Assembly: GCA_002402995.1 (NCBI GenBank) | Contig: DHGX01000004.1 | Span: 155,670-219,669 of the forward strand | Length of the DNA: 64,000 bases | DNA from: Patescibacteria group bacterium UBA4787 | GTDB taxonomy: Bacteria > Patescibacteriota > Patescibacteriia > UBA2591 > UBA4787 | Direction of reading: 5' to 3' | In this document: piece by piece, positions 22,822 to 58,184 of the stretch | Layout: each line of letters begins with the position of its first letter | How positions within the stretch are numbered: position 1 is the first letter of the stretch | Notes under the pieces: model-generated | The model's database searches: none | Seen by the model: the letters and a program-made list of their open reading frames with translations, nothing else | Told to the model about the DNA's origin: nothing | Made by a program: the position numbers and the translations under genes

Positions 22822-23399
22822 TATTTTATAATTTTACCCATATCTCCTGCTTCAACGCCGGCGGCGTTTCCTTCGTCGGTATCAAGCTGAAAAGATAATC
22901 TATATTTATCATTAACTCTAACTAAAACATTTTTAAAAATTAATCCGCGAGGACCGTCGGTTTCGATTTTTATCAATTCCCCGTCCTTAATTCCCAATTC
23001 TTCTGCTTCACGAGGAGAAACATGAAGATGGCGCCACGCTAAAATAACGCCCTTATTCAACATAATTGAGCCCTGCGGGCCAACAACCTCTACACCAGGC
23101 GTGCCAGCCAGCTCTAACTCTTCGGAATCGTGATAAGTCGCCGGAATGCCCAATAAACGAGCCTCTGTTTTTGATAATTCGATTTGGGTGAGAGACCTGA
23201 CCGGCCCCAAAATCCTTACATTTTTAAGTTCGGCTTTGTCTGTTTTTAAGTCAACGGTTTCTTCGGCCGCAAATTGTCCTGGCTGAGAAAGCTCCTTCGA
23301 AATTTGTAATTTATAATTTTCACCAAAAAGCTTATCCAAATCTTCTTGGGATAGATGAATATGTCTGGCGGATATTTCAATAGGAATATCTTTAATCAT
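22821..23399 (-). CDS. pduL: PduL-type phosphotransacylase (phosphate acetyl/propanoyltransferase)
   Basis: Two PduL repeats with SARHIHLS and AWRHLHVS motifs. Confidence 0.6.
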   Translation of the reverse strand: MIKDIPIEISARHIHLSQEDLDKLFGENYKLQISKELSQPGQFAAEETVDLKTDKAELKNVRILGPVRSLTQIELSKTEARLLGIPATYHDSEELELAGTPGVEVVGPQGSIMLNKGVILAWRHLHVSPREAEELGIKDGELIKIETDGPRGLIFKNVLVRVNDKYRLSFQLDTDEGNAAGVEAGDMGKIIK

Positions 23400-26251
23400 C
23401 TTTGTTCGGCGCTAAATTTCTGTTTAAGTATTTCTATAACCTTATTCTGAATTCCGTTAATCTCTTTTTCTTCCAGGGTTTTTTTGTCCGAATTCAATTC
23501 TATGCTAAAAGCAAAGCTTTTTTTGTCGCCGAATTTTTCGTCTTGAAAAATATCAAATAATTTAACCTCTTTAATCAGAGGGCTCGCTTCTTTTATGGCA
23601 TTTTGTATTTCTTGCCAAAGAATGTCTTTCTTAAATAGAAAAGAAAAATCGCGGGATACTGATTGATACGGCGAAAGGGGTGAATAATTAATTTTGTCTT
23701 TCGCCAAACCGAGAAGCTCATCAAAATTAAGCTCAAAGGCATAAACAGGATTTTTTAGACGTTTGTTTTCCGGAATATTAGACAATAGGCCACAAACACC
23801 GATGGGTTGATCGTTAACCGAAATTATTGAACTGTCTTTGGAATCAAAATGTTCGGAAAGTAATTTATAGTAAACCCCCTCTTGCTCAACAAGTTTATTC
23901 AAAACTTCCGGAGTCAAAAAATTCCATTTAGAATTATTTATGCCCAATTCATTTAAAATTTGCTCTACTACGCCCTTAATAACCGCGAAGGGATTTTTAT
24001 GAGCTTCGTTGATTAAGCCGGAAATAACCTTGGGTTGTCGTACGCCTTGTCCAATCTTAAAAAACACGCGTCCTAATTCAAAAATTCTGAAATTCTCATA
24101 GTTATAGATATTTTTCTCGATGGCCGATTCAAGGCCAAACATCATATTGAACCGCAGTAAACCTATCTCTGCAGCTAATGGATTAAGCAACGGGATAACA
24201 TTTTTCCTAAGAGCCGAATTAATTTTTGAAGCTTGATCAATAAAACTGACGCTATAAATTTCGTCAAAACCCAACGCCGCTAACAAATTTTTGATTTTGT
24301 TGTTTAAAAATACTTCCGGAGAAAGAGTTAATGGAACAATGGCGCTGGTGGCCGGTTTAGATAATAAATTATCGAGGCCACAAATCTTAACAATTTCTTC
24401 GGCTAAATCTTCGTTAGTTTTCAAATCTACTCGAGATAAAGAGATGTCCGCGAGCCAGCCTGTTTCTGCGCTTAAAATACGGTGCGCGCCTCTAAATTCA
24501 GTTTCTTTAATAAATTTATTTAAATTTTCTATAACTACTTTTCTTTGCTTGCTGCTGGCGTGAAGAACTTTATTTTTTCCCCAGAATATACCTACATGCC
24601 CGACTCCATTTTTATGTTTTTCGTTGATGTGCGGTTTAAGGCCTCGAGTAAAAAGCAAATCCCCGATTTTTAATGTTTTTAAATTATCGATTATTTCTCC
24701 TTGTTCAATTTGCTCAATGGTTAACCGCGGCAATTCAATCCCCAATTGCCGATATAGATATCGCGCCAAACTCGAACAGTCAAATAATTTAGGCGCGTCT
24801 AGAAAAGTGCTGGCGCCGTATTGATAGGTTGCGCCAATTAATGATTTGCCAATACTTATAAGCCTTTTTCGCAAATCTACGCGTTGCAATTTAATGCCCA
24901 ATCTTTTAAGGAAATTAAGATAAGTCTTGTCCGGCAAATCACATCCGATTAAACGATTTAAATATTCAAAATCAGCCAATATATATTTTTTATTGGTTAA
25001 AATCGCCAGGCCCTCACGGCTTGTTAAGTCGCGAACTTCGCCCACCTTGCCCCCAACCATTTCTAAAATTAAATTTACCGCGCGCCACAATCCTTCTTCT
25101 GCCAAAACTATCGGCAAACCCTTTTCAAATCGCGTGGCCGCTTCTGTCCTTAAGGCCAATCGATGCGAGGTTTTCCTGATGGCAACAGGATTGAAGTTAG
25201 CTGATTCAATGACAATATTTTTTGTTTTTTCGTTAATGCCCGAACCCTCTCCTCCCATGATACCGGCCAAAGCCAATGATTTATTGGGATCAGCGATCAA
25301 TAAATCATTTTCTTCCAAACTTCTTTCTATGCCATCGAGTGTTTTCGTTTTTTCTCCGGTTTTAGCTTCCCGAATAATAATTTCGTGATTCTCTAATAGA
25401 TCATAATCAAAAGCATGCAATGGTTGGCCCAATTCTAATAAAATATAATTGGTAATATCAACAATATTATTAATCGGCCGTAAGCCCAATGCTCTTAATC
25501 GCCTCTGTAACCAAGACGGCGAAGGCTTGATTTTTATTCCCTCAATGGTTATTGCCATATACCGCGGGCACGAATTTTTGGCCTCAAGTCTGACATGAAG
25601 CGGCAGATTATTTTTACTCTTAATTTTTTTAAAGAGAATGTTCTTTATGAGCAAATTTTTAATAATAGATATTTCCTTGGCAACGCCGTAATGCGAAAAT
25701 AAATCTGGCCGATTAGCCAGGGGCTTGTTTTCTAAATCTAAAATCGCGTCTTCTAAACCTAATATTTCTGTTATTCTCTGGCCAATTTTCGCTTGTGAAT
25801 CCAAAATCATTATACCAGTATGATCGTCCCCTAAGCCGAGCTCGTCTTCAGCGCAAAGCATGCCTTCTGACTTTATACCGCGGATTATAGATTCTTTAAT
25901 TTCTAGCCCGCCAGATAATTTAGCGCCGATTAAGGCTAATGGAACTTTTTGGCCCACCTTTATATTCGACGCTCCGCACACAATATTAAGAATCTTTTCT
26001 TTTCGGTTTTCTACGGATTTAACTATGGCTATCTGCAAACGATCCGCGTTTGGGTGCGGCTTCACCTCCATGATTTGAGCGACTATCACTTGATCTAACC
26101 CCTGTCCTAATTTTTTGATTGATTCGACATTGCTAATATGCGATGTCAAAAATTCGGCCAATTCTTCCGGCTTTTCTTTTCCGCCCGAGACGAATCCGCC
26201 TTTGGCGGAAAAATTAACTAATTGTTTAAGCCAATTATAAGATAAATACAT
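23396..26251 (-). CDS. pheT: Phenylalanine--tRNA ligase beta subunit with an inserted NlpC/P60 (C40 peptidase) domain
   Basis: OB tRNA-binding N-terminus, B3/4, B5, core and FDX-ACB regions; insert has DCSSLARYLYRQLGIELPR and GHVGIF...VLHAS motifs; 951 aa versus about 800 typical. Confidence 0.8.
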   Translation of the reverse strand: MYLSYNWLKQLVNFSAKGGFVSGGKEKPEELAEFLTSHISNVESIKKLGQGLDQVIVAQIMEVKPHPNADRLQIAIVKSVENRKEKILNIVCGASNIKVGQKVPLALIGAKLSGGLEIKESIIRGIKSEGMLCAEDELGLGDDHTGIMILDSQAKIGQRITEILGLEDAILDLENKPLANRPDLFSHYGVAKEISIIKNLLIKNILFKKIKSKNNLPLHVRLEAKNSCPRYMAITIEGIKIKPSPSWLQRRLRALGLRPINNIVDITNYILLELGQPLHAFDYDLLENHEIIIREAKTGEKTKTLDGIERSLEENDLLIADPNKSLALAGIMGGEGSGINEKTKNIVIESANFNPVAIRKTSHRLALRTEAATRFEKGLPIVLAEEGLWRAVNLILEMVGGKVGEVRDLTSREGLAILTNKKYILADFEYLNRLIGCDLPDKTYLNFLKRLGIKLQRVDLRKRLISIGKSLIGATYQYGASTFLDAPKLFDCSSLARYLYRQLGIELPRLTIEQIEQGEIIDNLKTLKIGDLLFTRGLKPHINEKHKNGVGHVGIFWGKNKVLHASSKQRKVVIENLNKFIKETEFRGAHRILSAETGWLADISLSRVDLKTNEDLAEEIVKICGLDNLLSKPATSAIVPLTLSPEVFLNNKIKNLLAALGFDEIYSVSFIDQASKINSALRKNVIPLLNPLAAEIGLLRFNMMFGLESAIEKNIYNYENFRIFELGRVFFKIGQGVRQPKVISGLINEAHKNPFAVIKGVVEQILNELGINNSKWNFLTPEVLNKLVEQEGVYYKLLSEHFDSKDSSIISVNDQPIGVCGLLSNIPENKRLKNPVYAFELNFDELLGLAKDKINYSPLSPYQSVSRDFSFLFKKDILWQEIQNAIKEASPLIKEVKLFDIFQDEKFGDKKSFAFSIELNSDKKTLEEKEINGIQNKVIEILKQKFSAEQR

Positions 26252-30142: not shown

Positions 30143-30243
30143 ATTTTTTTATGATAACATATTAAAAACGACTTGACAAGTTCAAAAATTATGCTATTCT
30201 TAATTTAATCGTTCATTTAAAACGTCAGAAATAAAGGAGAAAC

Positions 30244-30486
30244 ATGAGAAACTTGCTAAACCCGGGATGGAGCTCTAAGTTTTCGCTTTGGGAATTTCTA
30301 AAAAAAACTAATCCGGCGGGTAAAATAGTTAACGTTACTCCAGTCAATTCGTCGCTATCAATAACCGCCAAACTCGAATTATTCACTGAGCGCTATCTAA
30401 AACTTGACCGGTATGGCATAATCTGGTTGACCCAAGTCGCGGAAATGGAAATTTTAACAACACAAATCGAAATTGATTTAACCTAA
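30244..30486 (+). CDS. Small hypothetical protein, paralogous to the next ORF
   Basis: SD AAAGGAG 8 nt upstream; LWEFLKKTNPAGKIVNV resembles LFRFLQKRGANGKRVQI in the downstream ORF. Confidence 0.5.
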   Translation: MRNLLNPGWSSKFSLWEFLKKTNPAGKIVNVTPVNSSLSITAKLELFTERYLKLDRYGIIWLTQVAEMEILTTQIEIDLT

Positions 30487-30502
30487 TTAGAAGGAATAAG
30501 CA

Positions 30503-30796
30503 ATGCCGAAGAAACTTTTTTGGAGTAATACCGAATCACTCTTCCGTTTCTTACAGAAGAGAGGGGCTAATGGCAAAAGGGTACAAATCTGTGTTGACAA
30601 CGAAACACGAACTATTCTGCTTAGCATAGAGGGTACCATTGTCGCCTACAACTCAACTTATTTAACACTCGAGAGGCGTAGTTGTGTAATCGCCCTCGCT
30701 CTTAAGCCCGTCCAGAATTCTTCTAAACGCTATATGCCTGTCAGTAAGCAAAACATCTTTCTAGACGACGTTAAAAAGATCGAGATTCTCTCTTAG
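30503..30796 (+). CDS. Small hypothetical protein (paralogue)
   Basis: SD GAAGGAA; followed by a strong bidirectional terminator. Confidence 0.5.
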   Translation: MPKKLFWSNTESLFRFLQKRGANGKRVQICVDNETRTILLSIEGTIVAYNSTYLTLERRSCVIALALKPVQNSSKRYMPVSKQNIFLDDVKKIEILS

Positions 30797-30804
30797 AACC
30801 ATCA

Positions 30805-30838
30805 AACCCCAGAAACAATTTCTGGGGTTTTTATTTTT
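30805..30838. terminator. Bidirectional rho-independent terminator
   Basis: CCCCAGAAA-caa-TTTCTGGGG followed by a T-run. Confidence 0.7.
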
Positions 30839-33827: not shown

Positions 33828-33909
33828 AGCAGAAATAAGTTTACTGATATTTAGAAAAAATTCAAATATTTAATTTGGAAATGGCCTATCTCTCGTTATC
33901 AATCACCCC

Positions 33910-33938
33910 TTGACAAAAATAAATATTTTTGTTATATT
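33910..33938 (+). promoter_or_regulatory. Sigma70-like promoter (TTGACA-17-TATATT) for the Cys-rich ORF
   Basis: Perfect -35, 17-nt spacer, -10 TATATT, about 55 nt upstream of the SD. Confidence 0.5.
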
Positions 33939-33993
33939 ATATAATGCTTAATATCAAATATTGAACCTAAAAAAACAAAAGGAGGAAGGGACT

Positions 33994-34422
33994 ATGTGTG
34001 GACGTTGTGGCGGACGCAAGAGAACCTCGAGTTGTGGCGGTTGTGATGGGTGCGGTGCTTCATCCAAGAAGTTCGGATGCGAGATATTCAACCACGACAC
34101 CGGCGCGTCGATCGCGACCGGCAAGATCAAGACGATCAACGAACAAACGGGTTTTCTGGTGATAGTTATCGCCAAGGCCGACTTGAAAGCCGTTATGAAA
34201 GAGCTCAAAAAGGCTTTCAATAAAGCCAAGGACGCGGACAACGAGTTCACATACGGCGCGGCGAAAGAAACGCACCGACCCAGATGCGGCGGATGTTCGC
34301 GAATCTCGCGTCTGGAGAAAATGATCTGGGTGAAGCTGATCAAAGAGCAACCCGTGGAGTTCGAGAAAATTCTCCCCATCGCGATCCGAGCCGTGATCAA
34401 CGACGACGAAAAATCCTTCTAA
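33994..34422 (+). CDS. Cys-rich small protein (142 aa; N-terminal CxxC/CGGC cluster and a second RCGGC), GC-rich
   Basis: Strong SD AAAGGAGGAAGGG; ~55% GC versus ~33% background; own promoter and terminator. The antisense ORFs in the track are low-stop artefacts of the GC-rich DNA. Confidence 0.6.
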   Translation: MCGRCGGRKRTSSCGGCDGCGASSKKFGCEIFNHDTGASIATGKIKTINEQTGFLVIVIAKADLKAVMKELKKAFNKAKDADNEFTYGAAKETHRPRCGGCSRISRLEKMIWVKLIKEQPVEFEKILPIAIRAVINDDEKSF

Positions 34423-34430
34423 AATTTCAA

Positions 34431-34462
34431 AAGGAGCGAGTAATTCGCTCCTTTTTTATTTT
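34431..34462 (+). terminator. Rho-independent terminator
   Basis: GGAGCGA-gtaat-TCGCTCC plus TTTTTTATTTTTTT. Confidence 0.7.
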
Positions 34463-34560
34463 TTTAATTGAACCATCTATCAGACAATTTCACAAAGAGA
34501 CAATCCGTCTAAAAATGGGTATTTGACACAACAGCGTTTATATTCAATTAACCATGCCTC

Positions 34561-35148
34561 TTATACATAAAACCCTTCCTTGTGTTCTTTCATAAGTTGC
34601 TTATAGAATTCTTCAATTTTTTGATTAAACCATTTACGCCCTTCCTTGTGTTCTACTTCCACATCTTTTTCAATCTGATGGTAGGTGTCTATAGAACTCT
34701 TTCCTAATATCTCTTGATAAAAAATAAACCCTTCTTTCGTAAGAACCCATAACATATCAAAATTATTAAAGAGTCTCAAAACTGGCTCATCTGCATAATT
34801 ATCTCCAAAAGCCCAATTATCATGTTTCGAGACTAATCTTTTGATTTCCGCAATTTTGTTTTTCGGGTACTTTAGTCCTTCAAGAATTTCACTTGCGATC
34901 TTCGCGCCCTCTTCCATATGCAATTTACGCGTATCTAAATTCATAGGATTTGATCCTTTTGAAACCTTTGAATAACCAATATCATGGAGAATAACTACTG
35001 GAATTAATATGTCAAAATCAATTTCATATTTATCAGCAAATTTCGGCACTATTTTATATAGCCATTTAATATGTTCAACGTCTCCTTCTCTTCCTTTTTC
35101 ATATAACGGAAGGGCTTTCTCTAAGATTTGTTTGTATATTTCCTTCAT
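34561..35148 (-). CDS. HD-domain phosphohydrolase
   Basis: VILHDIGY H..HD...D motif pattern. Confidence 0.55.
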   Translation of the reverse strand: MKEIYKQILEKALPLYEKGREGDVEHIKWLYKIVPKFADKYEIDFDILIPVVILHDIGYSKVSKGSNPMNLDTRKLHMEEGAKIASEILEGLKYPKNKIAEIKRLVSKHDNWAFGDNYADEPVLRLFNNFDMLWVLTKEGFIFYQEILGKSSIDTYHQIEKDVEVEHKEGRKWFNQKIEEFYKQLMKEHKEGFYV

Positions 35149-36191: not shown

Positions 36192-38099
36192 TTAGAAAAT
36201 GCCTAGAAACTTATGTCTTTTCTTCTGTTTAACTGGGGAAAGTATGTCCGTTGCTGCTGGCTTCGCCGTTATGATTTTCAACCTCAGCAATGATACTTGA
36301 GCGTCAACAGGCAGGTTGTAGCTCAGAATTCCAGCCGGCAGAATGATCCGCTTAACAATCACCAGCGGATAGCGCTTAACAACATTCTTCTGGGGTACAG
36401 ATACCCAGGTGTTATCAACGATCTTCTCCGTCATCGGGGTTGTTGCGCCAGAATCTGAGTCCGGTGGCGGCAAACGGTACTCAACGTGCAGAAAGAGTTT
36501 TGTGTTAGACTGCGTATTTAAGTAACCGATTATTTTATCCGCTACCTTCAACTCGTCGTCGGTCAGAGCCGGCAGTTTAACGCCGTTACAAATAGTGATT
36601 TCTGCTTCGTCCACTGCGTCTTTGGGCACGACAAAGGGTATGACCAAACGATAACCGTATTCGGTGGTATCGTTGTCGGTGCTACCGGCCAAATAAACAC
36701 GGACAGTATCACCCGGCAAGGCCTCATCGCGATCGAGTTCCGCGCGCTTAATCACGAAATTGTCCTGTTTCGGCTGGAATAAAACGCTAATACGAACGGA
36801 TTTGATCTTGTGAATAGTGATTGCCTCTGCCGACAAAGAAGCTAGGCAATCAGCCAATGGACCCAAAACATAACCGCGCACGATTTTTGAAAAAGGATCT
36901 CCTTCAAAATTCATACTGTTGATGATGAAAATCGGATCCATGCCGTCGACGAAAATTTCCGTAATAATTTTGACATTACCATTGAAAACTTCGTTGCCCG
37001 GCCCCACTTCGTAGTAACCGTCGCTGATGGCATAAGCAGAAATGTACTGAACCAGATCAGCAGTCATACCGTTGATGTAAGCTACCCGACAATTGATGGT
37101 TCTGTGTTTTGCTTCGCCTGACAGATTGATGGTAATCGGTAACATTGGCGCTGCACGACCCATCTCTCCGGCAATACAAGAGTAGCAATCAGCAGTAATG
37201 ATACCGCGTTCCGTGCCAACATCACCACCCGTATACTTGTAGGTCGTGTAATAGTTGGCCAACGTTGTCAATATCCGAGCCGGCGCAACGTCAATAGCAG
37301 AAGGTCCTGTTTTCAAGAAAGGATGGCCGAAAGCCAAAAAAAATCCTCGCCGATCTATAGCGGTGATAGTGCCGGTGGCCATCATTCTGATATCACCGTC
37401 AATCAGATAGGCGTTGATCGCGCTACCGGGCTCCAATGTAACAGTCAGACCCTCGTCGCCATAGAAATACCCCTTCCCCGTTCCGCTAGTTGAAGGCACC
37501 ATCACAAAACCATTGACCTGAAACTTTTCAAAGAAAAAAGTATTCAAGTTTTCTGGTATATTGCGATTAGATGGCACTGACAGAACTAGGGGTGTAAGGT
37601 TTAAAGAGTATTTAGCCTTGGCACTGGGAACAGTTTTCCCCAAAAGACGGCTATTTAGGACAGCATTACTGGCATTAATCATCTCCTCAATCGGTGTAAC
37701 GCCGAAAATAGGATCCTTATCAAAAGCCCCGCCGTAAGACAACGCGCCGATCAAGCGGCCGTTGATGTACATTGGACTTCCGCTCATGCCAGCTGCCACA
37801 CCGGTATGCGAAATGGGATAATCTTTAGGACCGCCGAAAGCGCGACAGACAATTATCGGCATATCGCTCGCGCCTGCCCAAACGGTTGAGAATCCGAGCA
37901 CTTCGAATCCGAACTCCTCCGGCTTTATGCCATGGAACACCGTTTTGCCGTAACCCCTCATACCGGGCCGAATCTCGGAAAGTGGCATAATATTGCCGTA
38001 AGACGAGTTGTCAGATTTAATCGGTTTCGCGGCTTCGCTGTTTACAAATAAACAGAAAACCGCCATCAGCACGCACAACGCTGTCAAAATTCGTTTCAT
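36192..38099 (-). CDS. Secreted 635-aa protein with N-terminal SpoIVB/S55-like (PA-clan) serine peptidase motif
   Basis: Signal peptide; HTGVAAGMSGSPMYINGRLIGAL closely resembles the SpoIVB catalytic-Ser region; strong SD AAAGGAGG; ~52% GC. Confidence 0.55.
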   Translation of the reverse strand: MKRILTALCVLMAVFCLFVNSEAAKPIKSDNSSYGNIMPLSEIRPGMRGYGKTVFHGIKPEEFGFEVLGFSTVWAGASDMPIIVCRAFGGPKDYPISHTGVAAGMSGSPMYINGRLIGALSYGGAFDKDPIFGVTPIEEMINASNAVLNSRLLGKTVPSAKAKYSLNLTPLVLSVPSNRNIPENLNTFFFEKFQVNGFVMVPSTSGTGKGYFYGDEGLTVTLEPGSAINAYLIDGDIRMMATGTITAIDRRGFFLAFGHPFLKTGPSAIDVAPARILTTLANYYTTYKYTGGDVGTERGIITADCYSCIAGEMGRAAPMLPITINLSGEAKHRTINCRVAYINGMTADLVQYISAYAISDGYYEVGPGNEVFNGNVKIITEIFVDGMDPIFIINSMNFEGDPFSKIVRGYVLGPLADCLASLSAEAITIHKIKSVRISVLFQPKQDNFVIKRAELDRDEALPGDTVRVYLAGSTDNDTTEYGYRLVIPFVVPKDAVDEAEITICNGVKLPALTDDELKVADKIIGYLNTQSNTKLFLHVEYRLPPPDSDSGATTPMTEKIVDNTWVSVPQKNVVKRYPLVIVKRIILPAGILSYNLPVDAQVSLLRLKIITAKPAATDILSPVKQKKRHKFLGIF

Positions 38100-38266: not shown

Positions 38267-38908
38267 TCATTTCTTTCTCCACAAAAGAACATGATCGATT
38301 AATCCGTAATTGACCGCTTCATCGGATGTTAAATAGAAATCGACGAATAAATCCCGACGCAGCTCTTCAACGCTCTTGTCAGTATTGTCGCTCAAAAGAT
38401 TGAACCCGCGATTTTCCAAGCCTACCAAAATATAAAAGGCTTGTCGGAGATCTTCGCTTCGCCAAACATCGCCGCTAGTCCACAAAGCTGGGCGATGAAT
38501 CATAATAATAGCTAACGGCATAGCGAATCTGTAGCCCACACTACCACTAGAGAGTATGAAAGCCGCCCCGGAACAAGCTTCGCCGAGAACTACGGTTTTC
38601 ACCGGCTTCTGACATCGCTTTATACGATCGCAAATAGCAAAACTCCCGATAGCCGATCCGCCGGGCGAATTGATTAAAATATCGATTCGCTTCACGGTCA
38701 TATCCCGATCCAACACTTCGAGTTTAGACAAAATCTGCTCGGCGCTTGCATTCGTAATCTCGCCAAAGATCAAAATGGTGTTCGAAATAAACGGTAATTC
38801 ATTTTTTATCTTATAGCGATCGATGCTATGAGTTACGAAAACCGCTAAAGCGACAACCAGTAAAACCACGACCAGCACGGAAAACTTGTGACCAGTCGAC
38901 CGATCCAT
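38267..38908 (-). CDS. Membrane-anchored ClpP-fold serine protease (ClpP/NfeD/SppA class)
   Basis: N-terminal TM; INSPGGS, GEACSGAAF (catalytic Ser), MIHRP (His), NYGLID motifs; ~52% GC. Confidence 0.65.
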   Translation of the reverse strand: MDRSTGHKFSVLVVVLLVVALAVFVTHSIDRYKIKNELPFISNTILIFGEITNASAEQILSKLEVLDRDMTVKRIDILINSPGGSAIGSFAICDRIKRCQKPVKTVVLGEACSGAAFILSSGSVGYRFAMPLAIIMIHRPALWTSGDVWRSEDLRQAFYILVGLENRGFNLLSDNTDKSVEELRRDLFVDFYLTSDEAVNYGLIDHVLLWRKK

Positions 38909-43797: not shown

Positions 43798-43870
43798 AGC
43801 CAGCGGTCGGAATCGAACCGACGACCTTCGCTTTACGAAAGCGCTGCTCTACCAACTGAGCTACGCTGGC
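43798..43870 (-). tRNA. tRNA-Thr (anticodon CGU by manual fold)
   Basis: Cloverleaf GCCAGCG...TTCGATT...CGCTGGC; anticodon loop TTCGTAA. Confidence 0.7.
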
Positions 43871-43880
43871 GCCCCTTAAA

Positions 43881-43951
43881 AGCGGGGTACGAGAATCGAA
43901 CTCGCATCTCGTCCTTGGGAAGGATGCATAATACCACTATACTAACCCCGC
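43881..43951 (-). tRNA. tRNA-Gly (anticodon CCC by manual fold)
   Basis: Acceptor GCGGGGT/ACCCCGC, T-arm GCGAG-TTCGATT-CTCGT, anticodon loop TTCCCAA; D-arm is weak. Confidence 0.55.
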
Positions 43952-44003
43952 CTTATTGAAAGAAAATACTAACCTAATTATAGTATAATATTTTTTAGAA
44001 AAA

Positions 44004-45389
44004 TTAAAGCTTTTCTTTCTTCTCGTCCTTTTTATCCGGAACTACTATTAAGCTTTGCGGTTTGGGGGTTTCTTGTTTGACAACGAGAGTTTCTGCCAGA
44101 TTAGACTGGCCATCCTCTTGTTTGTCTGTCGCCTTGATTGTTTGTTTATTTAATTTTTGACTGGCCCTTTTGTCTGCTTTTTCTTTAAGAATTTTTTCTT
44201 TTTCTTTTTCTTCTGTTCTTTTACGACGATGTTCTACGGAAAGCCAATGCTTAGTGGTCTCCTCGATATCATCAAGCTGTTTTGAGAATTTAGTTTTCTG
44301 CCAAAACATCAATCGATCGACCAATAAAATTCCGCTCAGATGGTCTATCTCATGCTGAATAGCTCTTGCCAAAAAATGATCGGCTTTTATTTTAATTTTT
44401 TGTCCGTCTTCTAATTGATAATATTCTAATTCAATGGCCCTAAATCTGGAAATTTTTATATTTAGCCCCGGCAAGCTCAAACACCCCTCTTCCATTCTTT
44501 CGCGTTGCCAACTTGTTTTTAATATTTTAGGATTGATTAAAACCATTGGCCCGTCGCCAATATCTAAAACAATTAATTTTAACAAGATGCCAACTTGGTT
44601 AGCCGCCAGACCACAACCATTATTTTTATACATGGTATAAAGCATATTTTTTGCCAACTTGCGAATGTCGTCATTAATTTCCTTGATCAACTTTGCTTTA
44701 TCGCGCAATATCGGATCGCCATATTTTCTAACGACTAATTGTTCCGTCGGTTCATCGCTTAAGGATGGCTCACATAAAGGCAAAAAACTCTTGGTTGACT
44801 CTGCCATTTGATTTTTTTCAATTTGTTTAAGTGGCGGGTATAAATTCAAAAGCGCGGCCCCGGCCAAACCATATAGTACACCAATAACGATAAATAGATT
44901 GTAAAAATCGAAATAACTAGCAATCAAACCTCCCACCGCGGCCGCAAGCGCCTGGCCGACTTCAACTATCGTGGAATGAAAGGCAATTTGCGAGGCTTGC
45001 TTCCGAACATCCAAATGTTTCACAAAAATAGCATACCAAGTAGGGTATTGAATGGCCGCGCCAAAACCATAAATCACTTCAACAATATAAATCTGCCATG
45101 GATATCGACTAACCAAATAGCCCGCCGTAGCGATCACCGACAGAAAGGCGCCAAATAAAAACCATCTCAAATTTCGCCGATCGCTAGGTTCTGTATCAAG
45201 ATAATCAGCAATAAAAATTTGCGCGATAGCCTTAACCCCAAAGTAAATTGCTTCGGCCACGCCGATAACTAACAAGGTGCCGCCAATAATATTTTGGTTA
45301 ACGAAAATGGCGAAAATCGGCATTATTAAACCATAACCGAACCAATTGAAAAAATCCGCGAAGATAAGGGTTTTGACAATCTTGTTCAT
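44004..45389 (-). CDS. def: Fusion of an MFS-like 6-TM half with a C-terminal peptide deformylase and a K/E-rich tail
   Basis: N-terminal ~200 aa hydrophobic; then GCGLAANQ, EGCLS, HEIDH PDF motifs in a single continuous ORF. Confidence 0.6.
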   Translation of the reverse strand: MNKIVKTLIFADFFNWFGYGLIMPIFAIFVNQNIIGGTLLVIGVAEAIYFGVKAIAQIFIADYLDTEPSDRRNLRWFLFGAFLSVIATAGYLVSRYPWQIYIVEVIYGFGAAIQYPTWYAIFVKHLDVRKQASQIAFHSTIVEVGQALAAAVGGLIASYFDFYNLFIVIGVLYGLAGAALLNLYPPLKQIEKNQMAESTKSFLPLCEPSLSDEPTEQLVVRKYGDPILRDKAKLIKEINDDIRKLAKNMLYTMYKNNGCGLAANQVGILLKLIVLDIGDGPMVLINPKILKTSWQRERMEEGCLSLPGLNIKISRFRAIELEYYQLEDGQKIKIKADHFLARAIQHEIDHLSGILLVDRLMFWQKTKFSKQLDDIEETTKHWLSVEHRRKRTEEKEKEKILKEKADKRASQKLNKQTIKATDKQEDGQSNLAETLVVKQETPKPQSLIVVPDKKDEKKEKL

Positions 45390-45486
45390 ATAAATTATTA
45401 CTGATTCGTCTTATTTTAATCTATTTGCGGCTAATTGTCAAAAATCGCTGGAATATGCTAAAATAAAGTGTGTTAACCCCTATATT

Positions 45487-46080
45487 ATGAAAAAGAAAAT
45501 GTCTATAAAATTCATTGTATGGTTTTTGGTCTTAACGAGCCTTTTGTTTATTAACAATAAACAATCCTTAGGACAAAACCAAGCAACAAATAAAGAAATA
45601 AATATTTATTTTTTTTGGATGGACGATTGTCCTTATTGCGCCAAAGCAAAAGAATTCCTGCCAAAACTTGAAAGCAAATATCCCAATATCAAAATTAAGG
45701 CGTTTGAAATATCTTCCCATAATGATAATTTAAAAGTGATGCAAATTATGGAAGCGGCCTATGGCGCTACTTCCCGCGGTGTTCCCGAATTTTTTATCGG
45801 CGCGAAATATCATCAAGGATTTGAGAGTGAAAAAACCGACGGCCTAACGATCGAACAGATGATACAAAAGTGTCTTGCTAAAACTTGCCCCGACCCATCA
45901 GACGAAACGATTAATTATGTTAATAAATTAAATCAACAAAATAAATTCGCCGGCCCCTATCTGATAGGATTAATTTTATTGGTTATTTTGATAATTCTAA
46001 TCGGGATAATTTCGACTATCATAAAAAATAAAAAGAATAAACAGACTGATGATTCTGAAAAATTAGATCAAACCAAATAA
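45487..46080 (+). CDS. Secreted, C-terminally anchored thioredoxin-fold oxidoreductase (CPYC active site)
   Basis: Signal peptide, WMDDCPYCAKA, C-terminal TM. Confidence 0.55.
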   Translation: MKKKMSIKFIVWFLVLTSLLFINNKQSLGQNQATNKEINIYFFWMDDCPYCAKAKEFLPKLESKYPNIKIKAFEISSHNDNLKVMQIMEAAYGATSRGVPEFFIGAKYHQGFESEKTDGLTIEQMIQKCLAKTCPDPSDETINYVNKLNQQNKFAGPYLIGLILLVILIILIGIISTIIKNKKNKQTDDSEKLDQTK

Positions 46081-46109
46081 GAGGCATTAACCCCATATTT
46101 TATTATAGA

Positions 46110-46773
46110 CTAGGCTAACTTAAAATTATTTATTACCAAACCGAATTTATATCCTAAATATTCGGCTGCTTTTCGACAATAGACCATTCGCTCGGTAAAA
46201 ATTTCAAAATATTCTATAATGGGAATAATTTTTGTTTCTAATTTGATAGTCAAGGTAATGATCTTTTTTGTTTTATCGATTTTCAACTTGGTTTCCGTAA
46301 CAGCGAAATTAACACGATCATGAATATCATTATTTAAACATTTTATATTTTCTTTCCTAACCCTTGAACGATGAACGTCTGATTTATCCGCGATAACCAG
46401 AATAGAAGCTACGCTGCTGTTTAATTTCATTTCTTCTTTGTCGTGATTGGCGATCGCCTGGCAAATAATAGCCAGCTCTTCCGGCGTCATTCTATTCTGA
46501 AATATCTGGTGAAACAAAAGAGCGCCCCAATAATGATGCTGTAATCTGCCTAAAAAATTTCCCATATCATGACAGAAGCCGGCAATAGCCACCAATTCCT
46601 GCTCTTCTTTGGTCAAATCCATTTCTTTGGCGATATTTCTGGCTCGATCGCTAACTAAATTAATGTGACGAAAACCGTGCTCGTTATATTCCAGTGCCTT
46701 TAAGGTGCTCTCTGACTGGTTAATAAATTCTAGAACTTGTGGGTTATTTTTTATTTCAGAAAATGCAATCATA
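46110..46773 (-). CDS. HD-domain protein
   Basis: AGFCHDMGN motif. Start placed at MIAFSEIK; the ORF-track N-terminal extension reads through a tRNA-like fragment. Confidence 0.55.
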
Positions 46774-46800
46774 TATTTTAAATAAGTTATTAATAATATT

Positions 46801-46862
46801 TGGTAGCGCATAGGAGAATCGAACTCCTGTTTGGTGGTTGACCCAGTATAACAATTTATATA
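46801..46862 (-). other. tRNA-like 3' fragment (T-arm + acceptor 3' strand + CCA) with no matching 5' half
   Basis: rc reads ...CAGGAGTTCGATTCTCCTATGCGCTACCA; no complementary 5' acceptor found nearby. Confidence 0.4.
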
Positions 46863-46934
46863 TACCGCCACAGGGAATCGGACCCTGATTACATGGCTGA
46901 GAACCATGCGTCCTAACCATTAGACGATGGCGGC
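46863..46934 (-). tRNA. tRNA-Glu (anticodon CUC by manual fold)
   Basis: GCCGCCA...GTCT-AATGGTTA-GGAC, CATGG-TTCTCAG-CCATG, CAGGG-TCCGATT-CCCTG, TGGCGGT. Confidence 0.6.
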
Positions 46935-46936
46935 CA

Positions 46937-47035
46937 AAACCTATAAATTGTATACGGGGCAAGGAACCGCCCCTGGCCCGTAGTGAAACGAAGTTTCTAC
47001 CACTGGGCCGTCCTAGTTCACCCCGCTAAATAATT
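46937..47035. repeat. GC-rich multi-hairpin element (family D-like) downstream of tRNA-Glu
   Basis: Hairpins GGGGC..GCCCC and GGCCCG..TGGGCC; shares TACGGGGCA(A)GG and CGTCCT.GTTCAC with the in-frame insert in the ELP3-like gene. Confidence 0.4.
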
Positions 47036-47192
47036 TTGTAGTAAAACTGTACAAATAATATCGCATAAAATTTAACGGGGCAAGCTAAACGAACGCGCCA
47101 TAAATTTGGCGAGATAAATCATAGATGATAGGACCGAAATTAATATCAATTATTGTATCATTTTAGAGCCAAACAAGCAATATATTTTTCCG

Positions 47193-47226
47193 TTCAAAAA
47201 GAGAGGCAAAATTACCTCTCTTTTGT
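47193..47226. terminator. Bidirectional terminator downstream of groEL
   Basis: GAGAGG-caaaatta-CCTCTC with flanking runs. Confidence 0.65.
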
Positions 47227-47279
47227 GTAATATGTAATTTTCTCGCCTCGATTCTCGTTGGCGAAGCGGGTTTCAATGA

Positions 47280-49260
<1,981 letters not shown>

Positions 49261-49310
49261 AATTTTTATAAATTATCTCGCCTCGCTGTAAATTTGGCGA
49301 AACGGATTAG

Positions 49311-49337
49311 TTAGCACCCTGAACATTCAAGTGCTAA
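49311..49337. promoter_or_regulatory. CIRCE (HrcA operator) upstream of groES
   Basis: TTAGCACCC-N9-AAGTGCTAA versus consensus TTAGCACTC-N9-GAGTGCTAA. Confidence 0.75.
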
Positions 49338-49404
49338 TTATAACAACTGTGGATAACTAGCGCAAGAACGAATTTTCCACAGGAAGCAATTTTCCACAAC
49401 AATA

Positions 49405-49432
49405 TTGACAAGCTTGTTGTGGAGTATATAAT
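49405..49432 (+). promoter_or_regulatory. Sigma70 promoter (TTGACA-16-TATAAT) overlapped by the 9-bp inverted repeat CCACAACAA-N11-TTGTTGTGG
   Basis: Consensus hexamers ~30 nt upstream of secG; palindrome at 49392-49420 brackets the -35. Confidence 0.55.
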
Positions 49433-49459
49433 ACTAATCTAACGATATTTTTATTATCT

Positions 49460-49681
49460 ATGTTTGAATATTTAGATATTATCCAAGTTGTCATCTCTGT
49501 CCTGTTGGTTGTAGGGATTTTATTGCAAAACCGCGGTAGCGGACTTTCTTCAGCGTTTGGCGGTAGCGGAGAATTCTTCCAAACAAAGCGCGGCATTGAA
49601 AAAGGAATCTTTATTGCTACTATAGTTTTAGCTGTTATTTTTCTGGGGCTAGGCCTCCTGCGCCTAATTTTGGCGCGTTAA
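49460..49681 (+). CDS. secG: Preprotein translocase subunit SecG
   Basis: Two-TM 73-aa protein with Gly-rich loop typical of SecG. Confidence 0.7.
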   Translation: MFEYLDIIQVVISVLLVVGILLQNRGSGLSSAFGGSGEFFQTKRGIEKGIFIATIVLAVIFLGLGLLRLILAR

Positions 49682-49736
49682 AAACCGGCTAGATTGAACA
49701 CATAATTTAGAATTTTATATATTTTTCATTAAGTGA

Positions 49737-51554
49737 ATGCTATTAATGTTTAAAAAAATAGCGAATTTCTTGCGAATTATTTTTGATGTCTTAAAAAAAC
49801 ATCGGCAAAAAAAAGATAATTCATCGACCGATTATCAAATTATTAAAAATCTTTCTCTGCGAAAATGGCCAAATATCCACCAAGCAAGATATTTGCCTAA
49901 TTTTTTAAATAAAAAAGAAAAGAAAGAAATCCTGATTTGGAGTTGCCTGATTGTTGTTTTAATATTAACCCTACTCGTCCGATTATATTCAAAAAATTTC
50001 GTTACTCAGCCCGCCTCAGGAGGAACCTATGCCGAAGGAATAATCGGACAACCCACCTATATTAATCCCCTTTTCGCCAAATCTATTGATATTGATTATG
50101 ACATCGCGAGAATAATTTTTTCGGGCCTTTTAACGACCAACAAAAGTTTGGAGCTCAAAGATGATTTAGCAGAAAAACACGAGATCAGCGAAGATCATAG
50201 AACCTATAAATTTATCTTGCGCGATAATATTTTCTGGCACGACGGACAACCGCTAACTGTTGATGATGTAATTTTTACTTATCAAGCTATTAAAAACAAA
50301 CAATTATCCAGTCCTTATTATAATAATTTAAAAAATGTTTCTGTAAAAAAACTTGATTCTAAGGCGGTGGAATTTTCTTCCGATCAAGCCTCAAATCTAT
50401 CCCTTAATTATTTCGCTATTGGCATTATTCCCGAACACATCTGGAAAAACATACCGAAAGATAAATATCTTCAAACAGACTACAATCTTAAACCTGTTGG
50501 TAGCGGCCCCTATAAATTTAGGCTATTAACCAAAGATAGTGACGGGATGATAACTTCTTATGCTTTGGAACGAAATGAAAAATTCTATTTAAAAGCTCCT
50601 TATCTTGGCAAAATTAATTTTTTATTTTTTAAAAACTACGACGAAGCAGTGGCCGCCATCAGAGCCAAAAAGATTGATGGGTTAAATTATTCGCCCAAAA
50701 ATCTTGAAGAAAAAACGGTTAATCTTTCATTTTTGAACGCTTATCCTTTGCAAATACCATACTATACCGCGCTATTTTTAAATCCCCGCGCCAACAATTT
50801 TTTGGACTCAAAAACCATTAGGAAAATTCTGGCGTATAATACACCCAAGCAAAACATCGTAGAAGAAGTATTAAATAACAAAGGGCAAATTATAGACGGC
50901 CCCATTCTTCCCGGATCATTCGGCTTCAAAGAAGATATCATAAAATACCCGTACGATCCGACTAAAGCAGAAGCGGTTTTAAAAAACGCGGGATATGTTA
51001 AGAACGGAGATGGATTTTGGGAAAAAGACGGGAAGGCTCTGGAGATAAGTATAACCACCGCCCAGCAACCGGATTTGCAAAAAACCGCCAATATTATTCA
51101 AGGCGCTTGGCAGAATTTCGGGGTCAAAACGAAAGTCATCAGCATGCCCATCGATCTTATACAGAAGGAAATTATTAAGCCGAGGAATTATCAAATCTTA
51201 CTTTACGGAATCATCACTGGTTTTCATCAAGACCCTTATAACATTTGGCATTCGTCTCAAGTAAGCGATCCCGGTATAAATCTCAGCGTTTTCTCCAATA
51301 AAAGAGTTGATGAATTACTAGAAAAAGCGCGCACTTATCCGCTTGAAGACATCAAAAAGAAAAAATATTTCGAATTCCAAGATGTTATTGCCGAAGAAGT
51401 TCCAGCTATATTTTTGTATAACAGCCCTTATACCTATCTTATCAATAATAAAATTAAAGGATTCGCCGCGGAAAAAATTAACGTGCCGGCCGATCGATTC
51501 AATAATATCACCGAATGGTATATTAAAACTAAAAAAGTACACAAAAATCAATAA
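49737..51554 (+). CDS. ABC transporter substrate-binding protein, family 5 (peptide/nickel type), N-terminally anchored
   Basis: N-terminal TM; SBP_bac_5-like pattern throughout. Confidence 0.65.
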   Translation: MLLMFKKIANFLRIIFDVLKKHRQKKDNSSTDYQIIKNLSLRKWPNIHQARYLPNFLNKKEKKEILIWSCLIVVLILTLLVRLYSKNFVTQPASGGTYAEGIIGQPTYINPLFAKSIDIDYDIARIIFSGLLTTNKSLELKDDLAEKHEISEDHRTYKFILRDNIFWHDGQPLTVDDVIFTYQAIKNKQLSSPYYNNLKNVSVKKLDSKAVEFSSDQASNLSLNYFAIGIIPEHIWKNIPKDKYLQTDYNLKPVGSGPYKFRLLTKDSDGMITSYALERNEKFYLKAPYLGKINFLFFKNYDEAVAAIRAKKIDGLNYSPKNLEEKTVNLSFLNAYPLQIPYYTALFLNPRANNFLDSKTIRKILAYNTPKQNIVEEVLNNKGQIIDGPILPGSFGFKEDIIKYPYDPTKAEAVLKNAGYVKNGDGFWEKDGKALEISITTAQQPDLQKTANIIQGAWQNFGVKTKVISMPIDLIQKEIIKPRNYQILLYGIITGFHQDPYNIWHSSQVSDPGINLSVFSNKRVDELLEKARTYPLEDIKKKKYFEFQDVIAEEVPAIFLYNSPYTYLINNKIKGFAAEKINVPADRFNNITEWYIKTKKVHKNQ

Positions 51555-51563
51555 TGTTAATTC

Positions 51564-51647
51564 GGGCGAGTGGCGGAACTGGTAGACGCGCTAGCTTCAG
51601 GAGCTAGCAGGAGTAATCCTGTGGAGGTTCGAGTCCTCTCTCGCCCA
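51564..51647 (+). tRNA. tRNA-Leu (anticodon CAG)
   Basis: Class II tRNA with long variable arm; anticodon loop TTCAGGA. Confidence 0.8.
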
Positions 51648-51675
51648 CTTAAAAAATTATTTAAATGTAATTCAA

Positions 51676-53373: not shown

Positions 53374-53384
53374 AATAAAAAAAT

Positions 53385-54383: not shown

Positions 54384-54408
54384 TTTTTTTACACACAAAT
54401 ATATAAAA

Positions 54409-54437
54409 ATCGCCCTTTAAACGGGGTGATTTTTTTA
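54409..54437. terminator. Terminator between convergent trpS and the 637-aa gene
   Basis: ATCGCCC-tttaaac-GGGGTGAT plus TTTTTTT. Confidence 0.55.
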
Positions 54438-54456
54438 TACGAGAATCTATGTAAGG

Positions 54457-56370: not shown

Positions 56371-56431
56371 ATAAATATTATTTCTTTTTTTCCGTTACCT
56401 CTATATTGTTTAATCTTTGTAGTTTCTTTAT

Positions 56432-56516
56432 ACTTGCTTCGCTTCGTGAAATCGGCTCGCTACGGAATCAGACAAAAATTCTTTTTGCCTGTTCCTCCGC
56501 TCAACAATTATAAAGG
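56432..56516 (-). repeat. Repeat family B, partial inverted copy (lacks the GC hairpin)
   Basis: rc ~85% identical to the 39051-39105 core plus right flank. Confidence 0.5.
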
Positions 56517-56530
56517 GCATTAACCCTGTG

Positions 56531-57769: not shown

Positions 57770-57873
57770 AATGTATTTATTATACTCGCTACGCTCGTAA
57801 AATTGGTTCGCCCCGCTTCGCCGGAGCTCTCGCCACGCTAACGCGTTGGCGTAGCGGGTTAGCGAGGCGAGTC

Positions 57874-58081
57874 GGAGCCAAATCAAAAGAAGATTTTTGT
57901 TTGACGTCCTCGCTCATTCATTATAAGCAAAGCTTGAAATTTCTTCGCTCGGAGTCAAATCAAAAGAAGACTTTTGTTTGACGTCCTCGCTCATTCATTA
58001 TAAGCAAAGCTTGAAATTTCTTCGCTCGGAGTCAAATCAAAAGAAGACTTTTGTTTGACGTCCTCGCTCATTCATTATAAC
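57874..58081 (+). repeat. Tandem repeat, 77-bp unit x about 2.7
   Basis: Units start at 57874, 57951 and 58028 and are >95% identical; contains a TTATAAG/TATAAT-like box. Confidence 0.8.
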
Positions 58082-58184
58082 AAAAATTAATAAAATTTCA
58101 ATCGACTGTGGATAATCAAAAAACCTAAATTGTAGACCGAAAGGGGTTTACAAAATAACTATTTTTTGCTATAGTTTAATAACT

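What the first reader, a model, noticed from the sequence alone, without database searches (positions are those of the whole stretch)
33905..34465. Self-contained GC-rich cassette encoding a 142-aa Cys-rich protein
The cassette has a consensus promoter (TTGACA-17-TATATT), a very strong SD (AAAGGAGGAAGGG), a 142-aa ORF at ~55% GC, and a canonical terminator. It lies between two AT-rich native genes. The protein starts MCGRCGGRKRTSSCGGCDGCGASSKKFGC (six Cys in 29 aa, CxxC/CGGC spacing) and has a second RCGGC later. In between is a Lys/Ala-rich helical region.
This looks like a recently acquired, independently expressed gene. Possibilities are a metal-binding or zinc-ribbon regulator, a metallothionein-like protein, a precursor of a modified peptide, or a small anti-defence or toxin-like protein. 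The opposite-strand ORFs in the track are artefacts of the GC-rich DNA.
Basis: seen in the sequence. Interest (0 to 1): 0.6.

Follow-up and report, generated by a model that had tools for sequence, protein, structure and literature searches.

The report
Foreign orphan gene cassette in Patescibacteria
A small gene with foreign, GC-rich composition and its own promoter and terminator was inserted backwards into a conserved housekeeping gene row of a few groundwater Patescibacteria; it is a real, selected protein-coding gene with no detectable relatives, probably metal-binding, and its function is unknown.

Summary
Window 33907-34465 is a self-contained unit: the best sigma-70 promoter match in 20 kb, a strong ribosome-binding site, a 142-aa ORF (33994-34422) and an intrinsic terminator. 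Its GC3 is 0.67 against a window median of 0.36 (about +5 SD).

- **Coding status:** it is a real protein gene. dN/dS is 0.05-0.15 in the + frame and indels are in frame. The open antisense frame gives 0.6-2.4, so it is an artefact.
- **Relatives:** the only ones among ~15 billion proteins are orthologues in two sister Patescibacteria lineages, at the same position.
- **Insertion:** six related genera have an empty TatD-helicase junction. Two others carry different, unrelated GC-rich orphan genes there, with the same promoter/SD/terminator layout.
- **Foreign origin:** codon usage is non-native and substitutions run GC>AT 12:4. Synonymous distances show a recombination mosaic around the cassette.
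- **Age:** acquisition is supported but is not recent.
- **Function:** unresolved; two structure predictions failed. Five invariant Cys within variable Cys-Gly tracts suggest a metal (zinc) site on a conserved basic core.
- **Not supported:** modified-peptide precursor, metallothionein, structured RNA, known defence gene, phage origin.

Verdict: a chromosomal, moron-like orphan cassette of moderate interest.

The parts
33907..33938 (+). Promoter: C-run + TTGACA (33910-33915), 17-nt spacer with TG, -10 box TATATT (33933-33938)
   Evidence: Matches 11/12 with TG, and is the only such match in 20 kb. It is conserved in L001 and L010. Activity was not tested experimentally.
33939..33993 (+). 5' leader with SD AAAGGAGGAAGGG (33978-33990). 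The transcription start is inferred to lie near 33945.
   Evidence: Promoter plus leader is 81/86 identical to L001 (94%), while synonymous sites differ by dS ~0.43. In L010/L007 the leader carries an ~85-nt insertion and a tandem in-frame duplication of SD-ATG-CGGC.
33994..34422 (+). Coding sequence: 142 aa plus stop. The protein is basic (pI 9.25) and has no signal peptide or membrane segment.
   Evidence: Searches give the ORF and translation. dN/dS is 0.05-0.15 in this frame only, indels are in frame, and differences by codon position are 14/5/31. pI and GRAVY are.
33994..34080 (+). N-terminal Cys/Gly/basic tract (residues 1-29, six Cys). It is the hypervariable part of the protein.
   Evidence: Orthologues have MCGGCNGCGGCKKASGCGGCDNSSKKFGC or only MCGGCGNSPKKFGC here. 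The invariant residues are M-C-x-x-C at the start and the Cys of KKFGC.
34285..34296 (+). Internal CGGC (residues 98-101), in a loop of variable length
   Evidence: The motif is RCGGC in the window, GCGGCGGC in L001 and L007, and GCGGGCGGC in P0127. The difference from L001 is a 9-nt in-frame indel.
34429..34465 (+). Intrinsic terminator: 12-bp stem, 3-nt loop and T-run. An A-run upstream means it could also stop the convergent HD gene.
   Evidence: Found. The 3'UTR plus terminator is 39/42 identical to L001. L007 has a 54-nt GC-rich palindromic insert between the stop codon and this hairpin.
33954..34400 (-). Antisense 148-aa ORF: not a gene
   Evidence: It shares third codon positions with the + ORF. 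dN/dS in that frame is 0.62, 0.64 and 2.4 in the three pairs.

Best explanation
This is a lineage-restricted orphan protein gene on a self-contained, moron-like transcription unit (strong sigma-70 promoter, strong SD, one ORF, intrinsic terminator). The unit came from an unidentified GC-richer source. It was inserted antisense into the TatD-helicase junction of the conserved TatD>helicase>small gene>PheS>PheT array, in the ancestor of a small clade of groundwater Patescibacteria. Since then it has been kept by purifying selection and passed between lineages by recombination.

Shown: it is coding, selected, compositionally foreign, absent from the same slot in related genera, and has constrained regulatory flanks.

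Inferred: the product is a ~15-kDa basic cytoplasmic protein with a conserved alpha/beta core. Its invariant N-terminal M-C-x-x-C and internal C-G-G-C probably coordinate one metal ion (most likely zinc), tying the N-terminus to an internal loop. The surrounding Cys-Gly tracts expand and contract without a fixed role. The likely cellular role is a small binding or regulatory accessory protein. My confidence is about 0.75 for the cassette/acquisition part and about 0.35-0.4 for the metal-site part.
For: Coding and selected:
- dN/dS is 0.147 (window vs L001), 0.125 and 0.096 in the other pairs, and 0.05-0.13 on the core, in the + frame only.
- Indels are in frame.

Foreign composition:
- GC3 is 0.67 against a median of 0.36, SD 0.06.
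- NNC codons are 73% vs 25% in native genes, ATC 77% vs 16%, TTC 86% vs 15%; GC2 is 0.43 vs 0.22-0.30.
- Native GroEL and GroES have GC3 of only 0.38 and 0.43.
- Polarised substitutions run GC>AT 12 to AT>GC 4, against 48:62 in tatD.
- The other GC-rich gene nearby (635 aa) has its homologues outside Patescibacteria.

Insertion:
- The slot is empty in L012, L014, L015, L016, L017 and L018.
- It is filled with unrelated GC-rich orphans of the same promoter/SD/terminator layout in L011 and L013.

Restricted distribution:
- Only orthologues appear in 5.8 billion clusters and 1.84 billion representatives, plus one MAG copy.

Constraint on regulatory DNA:
- Promoter plus leader is 94% identical and the terminator 93% identical to L001.

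Exchange between lineages:
- Helicase dS is 1.20-1.25 to L010, while the cys gene gives 0.26-0.49.

Metal site:
- Five Cys are invariant across four variants, arranged as two CxxC pairs plus one. This step is inference.
Against: - No donor or homologue was found, so foreign origin rests on composition and synteny only.
- No expression data were available, so promoter, SD and terminator are consensus matches only.
- Both AlphaFold runs gave pLDDT of about 40. There is therefore no structural support for a zinc site or any fold.
- Cys spacing in the internal loop varies (CGGC, CGGCGGC, CGGGCGGC), which is unusual for a rigid structural zinc knuckle.
- The GC>AT excess rests on 16 substitutions.
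- The dS discordance could instead reflect replacement of the helicase allele in L010.
Confidence: 0.6

Rival explanations
1. The cassette is a phage- or mobile-element-derived conflict gene. It would be a true moron left in the chromosome, whose product acts in anti-defence, superinfection exclusion or as a toxin-like effector.
For: The anatomy matches the moron definition: own promoter and terminator, deviant GC, and extra DNA relative to syntenic relatives (PMC3594210). It is an orphan with a narrow distribution. There is a weak PHROG hit to phrog_13491 (unknown function, E 0.005).
Against: - No phage genes lie nearby. The neighbourhood is PheST, helicase, TatD, ClpP, FolD, GroEL and tmRNA.
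- There is no match in IMG/VR, INPHARED phages or PLSDB plasmids.
- The sister cassettes are also absent from viral contigs.
- There is no PADLOC hit.
- Stable retention under dN/dS ~0.1 across lineages is not specific to conflict genes.
Confidence: 0.15
2. It is a native gene whose GC-rich codons reflect selection for very high expression, not foreign origin.
For: It has the strongest promoter match in 20 kb and a very strong SD. ClpP, a likely well-expressed native gene, has elevated GC3 of 0.49.
Against: - GroEL and GroES have GC3 of only 0.38 and 0.43.
- The bias also affects NNG codons, four-fold sites and second codon positions.
- The slot is empty in six related genera.
- There are no homologues in other Patescibacteria.
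- Substitutions are skewed GC>AT.
Confidence: 0.07
3. It is the precursor of a modified peptide, or a metallothionein-like metal sponge, and the Cys-rich tract is the functional part.
For: The N-terminal tract has six Cys in 29 residues with CxxC spacing. There is a very weak NCBIfam hit to heterocycloanthracin/sonorensin (E 0.86).
Against: - The Cys tract is the least conserved part and is nearly absent in the 130-aa form, while the ~115-aa remainder is ~90% conserved.
- No radical-SAM, YcaO or lanthipeptide enzymes lie within ~10 kb in any of the loci.
- Only 5.6% of residues are Cys.
- No Pfam or NCBIfam family is matched above noise.
Confidence: 0.05
4. The GC-rich island is a structured non-coding RNA and the ORF is incidental.
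For: GC-rich islands in AT-rich genomes are often RNA genes. The full transcript folds better than shuffles (z -4.4).
Against: - The z-score falls to -2.6 (window) and -1.3 (L001) for the CDS alone. The antisense gives -2.1 and control genes give -0.3 and -1.3.
- The predicted structures differ between orthologues.
- No Rfam family is matched.
- The substitution pattern is that of a protein gene.
Confidence: 0.03

Closest known systems
Phage 'morons' (e.g. HK97 gene 15 element)
   Same: A single gene with its own promoter and terminator. Its GC content differs from the neighbours, and it is recognisable as extra DNA between genes that are adjacent in relatives (PMC3594210).
   Different: It sits in a chromosomal housekeeping array (TatD-helicase-PheST), not in a phage or prophage. 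It has no phage homologues. It is transcribed antisense to the array.
Horizontally acquired genes and genomic islands reported in groundwater Patescibacteria (PMC12455944)
   Same: Same phylum and habitat, with compositionally deviant accessory DNA in streamlined genomes. The neighbouring 635-aa S55-peptidase-like gene fits that pattern, with relatives in other phyla.
   Different: Here the unit is a single ~560-bp gene cassette, not a multi-gene island. No donor or homologue is detectable, and different orphan cassettes recur at one junction in different genera.
CxxC zinc-binding modules (DnaJ-type CxxCxGxG repeats, zinc ribbons)
   Same: Paired CxxC motifs followed by Gly. For example, CGGCDGCG fits the CxxCxGxG pattern (read from the sequence).
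   Different: The number and spacing of motifs vary between orthologues. No zinc-finger HMM is matched above noise: zf-CXXC has E 3.1 and Zn_ribbon_12 has E 0.25. The two conserved pairs are about 95 residues apart.
Bacterial metallothioneins (SmtA/BmtA type)
   Same: A small protein with clustered Cys.
   Different: Only 5 conserved Cys. Most of the protein is a conserved non-Cys alpha/beta core. There is no family match.

Membership tests
Moron (independent transcription unit added to a syntenic gene row) | Own promoter upstream of the gene | tested here: met
   An 11/12 consensus match with TG, unique in 20 kb and conserved in three lineages. This is a consensus match only; there is no transcript evidence.
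Moron (independent transcription unit added to a syntenic gene row) | Own factor-independent terminator | tested here: met
   A 12-bp stem plus T-run at 34429-34465, conserved in the orthologues.
Moron (independent transcription unit added to a syntenic gene row) | Nucleotide composition differs from surrounding genes | tested here: met
   GC3 is 0.67 against a median of 0.36 (SD 0.06), with foreign codon usage.
Moron (independent transcription unit added to a syntenic gene row) | Absent from the same position in related genomes | tested here: met
   The junction is empty (10-409 nt) in L012, L014, L015, L016, L017 and L018.
Moron (independent transcription unit added to a syntenic gene row) | Resides in a phage or prophage genome | tested here: not met
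   Neighbours are housekeeping genes. There are no viral, phage or plasmid matches. So it works like a moron but is not filed as one.
DnaJ-type / C4 zinc-finger modules | Match to a family HMM, with a fixed number and spacing of CxxC(xGxG) motifs | tested here: not met
   Pfam hits are only noise, with E of at least 0.25. Motif number and spacing vary among orthologues.
DnaJ-type / C4 zinc-finger modules | Binds zinc through four Cys | not testable with these tools
   Two CxxC pairs are invariant. The structure models are unusable, with pLDDT ~40.
Metallothionein | Cys makes up a large share of the whole chain, with a family match | tested here: not met
   8 of 142 residues are Cys (5.6%), and 5 are conserved. 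There is no Pfam or NCBIfam match.
Ribosomally made modified-peptide precursor | Maturase genes (radical SAM, YcaO, LanM etc.) next to the precursor | tested here: not met
   None occur in the ~20-kb annotated neighbourhoods of three lineages.
Known anti-phage defence proteins | Match to a PADLOC model | tested here: not met
   No families match at E of 1 or below.
Structured RNA gene | Rfam match, or conserved structure with a folding energy well below shuffles | tested here: not met
   There is no Rfam match. CDS z-scores are -2.6 and -1.3, similar to the antisense and to control genes. Covariation is not testable with three near-identical sequences.

The most novel reading that the evidence does not exclude
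The Cys gene may be one example of an undescribed class of single-gene cassettes in Patescibacteria. The class would comprise GC-rich orphan genes from an unsampled donor pool, each pre-packaged with a C/G-run+TTGACAAAA promoter, an AAGGAGG SD and a terminator. These would repeatedly land antisense at the same junctions of conserved housekeeping arrays and spread between species by recombination. Five such cassettes occur at or beside the TatD-helicase junction in three genera. Two in L011 share a 30-nt hairpin abutting the -35 box. Under this reading, the protein itself would be a new metal-binding fold.
Probability: 0.15. Interest if true: 0.7.

Novelty: new member of a known kind. Interest (0 to 1): 0.4.

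Why it matters
Patescibacteria have tiny genomes in which most accessory genes are unexplained. This locus is a clean case of how such a genome gains a new, strongly expressed gene: one foreign transcription unit dropped into a housekeeping row, then kept by selection and shared between species.

If the recurrence of different GC-rich orphan cassettes at the same junction is general, it points to a specific acquisition route or donor pool, such as hosts or unsampled mobile elements. That would be relevant to how these symbionts adapt.

The protein has no relatives among ~15 billion sequences. Its structure or metal chemistry would therefore be new information, though nothing yet shows an unusual mechanism.

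Tried and rejected
- **Family libraries (Pfam, PHROGs, NCBIfam, PADLOC):** noise only.
- **PDB sequence profile search:** nothing below E 0.08.
- **Exhaustive phmmer over 1.84 billion representatives:** two extra hits, a multihaem CxxCH-repeat protein and a tail-fibre-like repeat protein. I rejected both as low-complexity artefacts.
- **AlphaFold2:** run on the two-sequence alignment and on the core only. pLDDT was 41 and 40, so the models are unusable and I ran no fold search. The strand-strand-strand-helix-strand pattern and the acidic C-terminus ending in F or L hinted at an OB/SSB-like fold. I do not claim this.
- **Structured-RNA hypothesis:** rejected.
- **Antisense ORF as the gene:** rejected.
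- **Expression-driven codon bias:** rejected.
- **Phage, plasmid or viral origin:** no support for this gene, for three of the four sister cassettes (L011's 126-aa ORF was not scanned), or for the promoter module.
- **Link to the 'Heavy_Cys_CGP' gene next to TatD in L001/L012:** none found.
- **Tandem repeats in the Cys tract:** none by TRF, only a 10-nt GTTGTGGCGG duplicate.
- **Flanking direct repeats:** only CAAAAGGAG, shared by the SD region and the terminator arm. I treat this as chance or functional purine runs.
- **Failed script:** one script gave no answer and was rerun in parts.

Full report

The region reads as described.
- The promoter is TTGACA (33910), 17 nt, then TATATT (to 33938), with a TG before the -10 box. 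It matches 11/12 and is the only 11/12 match on either strand in a 20-kb scan.
- The SD AAAGGAGGAAGGG lies at 33978-33990.
- The ORF is 33994-34422 and gives the quoted 142-aa protein.
- A 12-bp hairpin at 34429-34455 is followed by a T-run.
- GC is 0.53 and GC3 0.67. The 60 ORFs of the window have median GC3 0.36 and SD 0.06, so this is the strongest outlier, at about +5 SD.
- The flanking genes are a UvrD/PD-(D/E)XK helicase and an HD-domain protein, followed by TatD. All have native composition.

**2. Gene or artefact?** It is a real protein-coding gene.

GC-rich DNA carries open frames on both strands, and the 148-aa antisense ORF shares third codon positions with the + ORF. I therefore tested all six frames on three orthologous sequences.
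- The + frame gives dN/dS of 0.13, 0.11 and 0.05.
- The open antisense frame gives 0.62, 0.64 and 2.4.
- Differences by codon position are 14/5/31, and all indels are multiples of three.

A structured-RNA reading was also tested and is not supported.
- No Rfam family is matched.
- The whole transcript folds well (z -4.4). For the CDS alone z is -2.6 (window) and -1.3 (L001). The antisense gives -2.1 and control genes give -0.3 and -1.3.
- The predicted structures differ between orthologues.

**3. Distribution.**

- No Pfam, PHROG, NCBIfam or PADLOC family is matched beyond noise, and no PDB sequence is matched.
- In 5.8 billion protein clusters only the protein itself and one orthologue cluster appear (84% identity).
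- An exhaustive phmmer search of 1.84 billion representatives adds only two repeat-protein artefacts.
- Nucleotide-level scans add one copy in a Patescibacteria MAG from the Hainich aquifer (L007, contained in L010). NCBI calls it a 130-aa hypothetical protein.
- There are no matches in IMG/VR, INPHARED phages or PLSDB plasmids.

**4. Anatomy of the protein family.**

- The core, from KKFGC to the C-terminus, is about 90% conserved.
- The N-terminal Cys/Gly/basic tract is hypervariable. It reads MCGRCGGRKRTSSCGGCDGCGASSKKFGC in the window, MCGGCNGCGGCKKASGCGGCDNSSKKFGC in L001, and only MCGGCGNSPKKFGC in L007.
- The internal motif is RCGGC, GCGGCGGC or GCGGGCGGC.
- Five Cys are invariant: the M-C-x-x-C at the start, the Cys of FGC, and one internal CxxC.
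- The protein is basic (pI 9.25) and has no signal peptide or membrane segment.
- Two AlphaFold runs gave pLDDT of about 40, so the fold is unknown.
- A single metal site, probably zinc, formed by the two invariant CxxC pairs is my inference. It is not a result.

**5. Foreign origin.**

- Codon usage is non-native in every class: NNC 73% vs 25%, two-fold NNG 53% vs 25%, ATC 77% vs 16%, TTC 86% vs 15%. Second-position GC is also raised.
- Native chaperonin genes have GC3 of only 0.38 and 0.43, so expression-linked bias does not explain it.
- On the L001 and L007 branches, substitutions run GC>AT 12 to AT>GC 4, against 48:62 in tatD. This fits slow decay towards host composition, but the numbers are small.
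- The only other strongly GC-rich gene nearby is 36192-38099, a 635-aa secreted protein. Its homologues (~30% identity, S55 peptidase domain) are in Acidobacteria, KSB1, Caldithrix and Planctomycetes rather than Patescibacteria. So GC-rich does mark acquired DNA in this genome.

**6. It is an insertion, but not a recent one.**

- Relatives of the helicase fall at 100, 93 and 87% identity (all with the cassette) and then at 59% or less.
- In those more distant genomes, TatD>helicase>~128-aa gene>PheS>PheT is a conserved co-directional row.
- The TatD-helicase junction there is 10, 34, 131, 244, 323 and 409 nt, with no gene, in L015, L018, L014, L016, L012 and L017.
- Within the clade, dS of the cys gene between the window and L001 is 0.43. 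This equals that of tatD (0.49) and the helicase (0.46).
- The cassette therefore predates that split and has been kept under selection.
- Promoter plus leader is 94% identical to L001 and the terminator region 93% identical, far above the neutral expectation.

**7. Mosaic history.**

- By the helicase, L010 is much more distant: dS is 1.20 to the window and 1.25 to L001.
- The cys gene gives 0.49 and 0.26, and tatD gives 0.46 and 0.64.
- There is therefore a recombination breakpoint between the cassette and the helicase.
- Either the cassette (with tatD) moved between lineages after they diverged, or the helicase allele was replaced in L010. More genes are needed to decide.

**8. A recurring pattern.**

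- In L011 the same junction holds a different 132-aa membrane-anchored orphan, and the other side of TatD holds a 126-aa lipoprotein-like orphan.
- In L013 the junction holds a 151-aa lipoprotein-like orphan and a 232-aa membrane-anchored orphan.
- All are antisense to the array and GC-rich (GC3 0.61-0.73 against flanks of ~0.32-0.45).
- They are unrelated to each other and to the cys protein by BLASTP, and have no Pfam family.
- All have a C/G-run + TTGAC(A/T) -35 box and a -10 box after a 16-17-nt spacer (three of the four also carry TG before the -10 box), an AAGGAG-type SD and an intrinsic terminator.
- The two L011 cassettes share a 30-nt hairpin abutting the -35 box.
- Three of the four sister orphans were scanned against viral contigs and none occurs there; L011's 126-aa ORF was not scanned.
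- This recurrence is the most interesting aspect, and I cannot explain it.

**9. Comparison with known things.**

- The anatomy is that of a phage moron: own promoter and terminator, deviant GC, and extra DNA relative to syntenic relatives (PMC3594210).
- However, the setting is a chromosomal housekeeping row and there is no phage link. It therefore works like a moron but is not filed as one.
- HGT and islands are documented in groundwater Patescibacteria (PMC12455944). I found nothing describing this gene or such single-gene cassettes.
- Zinc-finger, metallothionein, modified-peptide and defence-system memberships were each tested and not met (see the membership table).

**10. Verdict.**

The cassette is a real, selected, horizontally acquired orphan gene unit, probably encoding a small metal-binding protein of unknown role. 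I classify it as a new member of a known kind (acquired orphan accessory gene, moron-like unit). Interest is moderate, raised somewhat by the recurrent cassette pattern at one junction.

Noticed in passing
window 36192-38099 (-): A 635-aa secreted protein (signal peptide, GMSGSP serine-protease-like motif, weak S55/SpoIVB hit) is the second GC-rich outlier (GC 0.47, GC3 0.52). Its homologues (~30% identity) are S55-domain proteins of Acidobacteria, KSB1, Caldithrix, Planctomycetes and others, with one 76% orthologue. It is likely an inter-phylum transfer.
   Followed up: partly
window 30173-30830 (+): Another self-contained + strand unit lies inside the minus-strand array. It has a TTGACA-16-TATTCT promoter with TG, two paralogous small ORFs (80 aa at 30244-30486 and 97 aa at 30503-30796; 32% identity, E 1e-5; no Pfam) and a strong terminator at 30804-30830. 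L001 has different small ORFs at this position.
   Followed up: partly
window 34561-35148 (-): An HD-domain gene of native composition sits between the cassette and TatD in this lineage only. It is absent in L001 and L010, where the cassette abuts TatD.
   Followed up: no
L007 1-724 / L010 1140-1969: This orthologue has three changes: an ~85-nt insertion in the leader just after the -10 box, a tandem in-frame duplication of the leader-SD-ATG-CGGC segment (giving 150-aa or 130-aa products depending on the start), and a 54-nt GC-rich palindromic insert between the stop codon and the terminator.
   Followed up: partly
L011 4016-4480 and 5300-5950; L013 3533-5000; L017 1156-1194: Other GC-rich antisense orphan cassettes share the same promoter/SD/terminator layout. 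The two in L011 share the hairpin CCCCCACAnCAAAAnnTTTGGTGTGGGGG directly before TTGACA. A similar G-run+TTGACAAAA promoter precedes an unannotated 296-aa gene in L017.
   Followed up: partly
L015 7951-8601: A ~600-nt stretch with no called gene lies downstream of the helicase, with GC 0.48 against a locus median of 0.31. It may be an uncalled cassette or an RNA.
   Followed up: no
window 23396-26251 (-): The PheT (phenylalanyl-tRNA synthetase beta) gene is 951 aa and carries a precomputed NlpC/P60 domain hit in this clade (also in L001). The PheT genes of the outgroup loci (779-810 aa) do not.
   Followed up: no
window 33967-33984 vs 34419-34463: The SD region and the terminator 5' arm share CAAAAGGAG. 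The terminator 3' arm plus T-run is 88% complementary to the SD region over 16 nt, and the last codons (UCCUUCUAA) can also pair with the SD. A 5'-3' interaction masking the ribosome-binding site is conceivable but untested.
   Followed up: no
window 38267-38908 (-): ClpP has clearly raised GC3 (0.49) compared with GroEL (0.38) and the window median (0.36). It lies directly next to the acquired 635-aa gene.
   Followed up: no
window 58821-59198 (+) and seven tRNA genes (43798-61937): tmRNA and tRNA genes were found by Rfam. They are ordinary, and they confirm that the window is chromosomal core DNA.
   Followed up: yes
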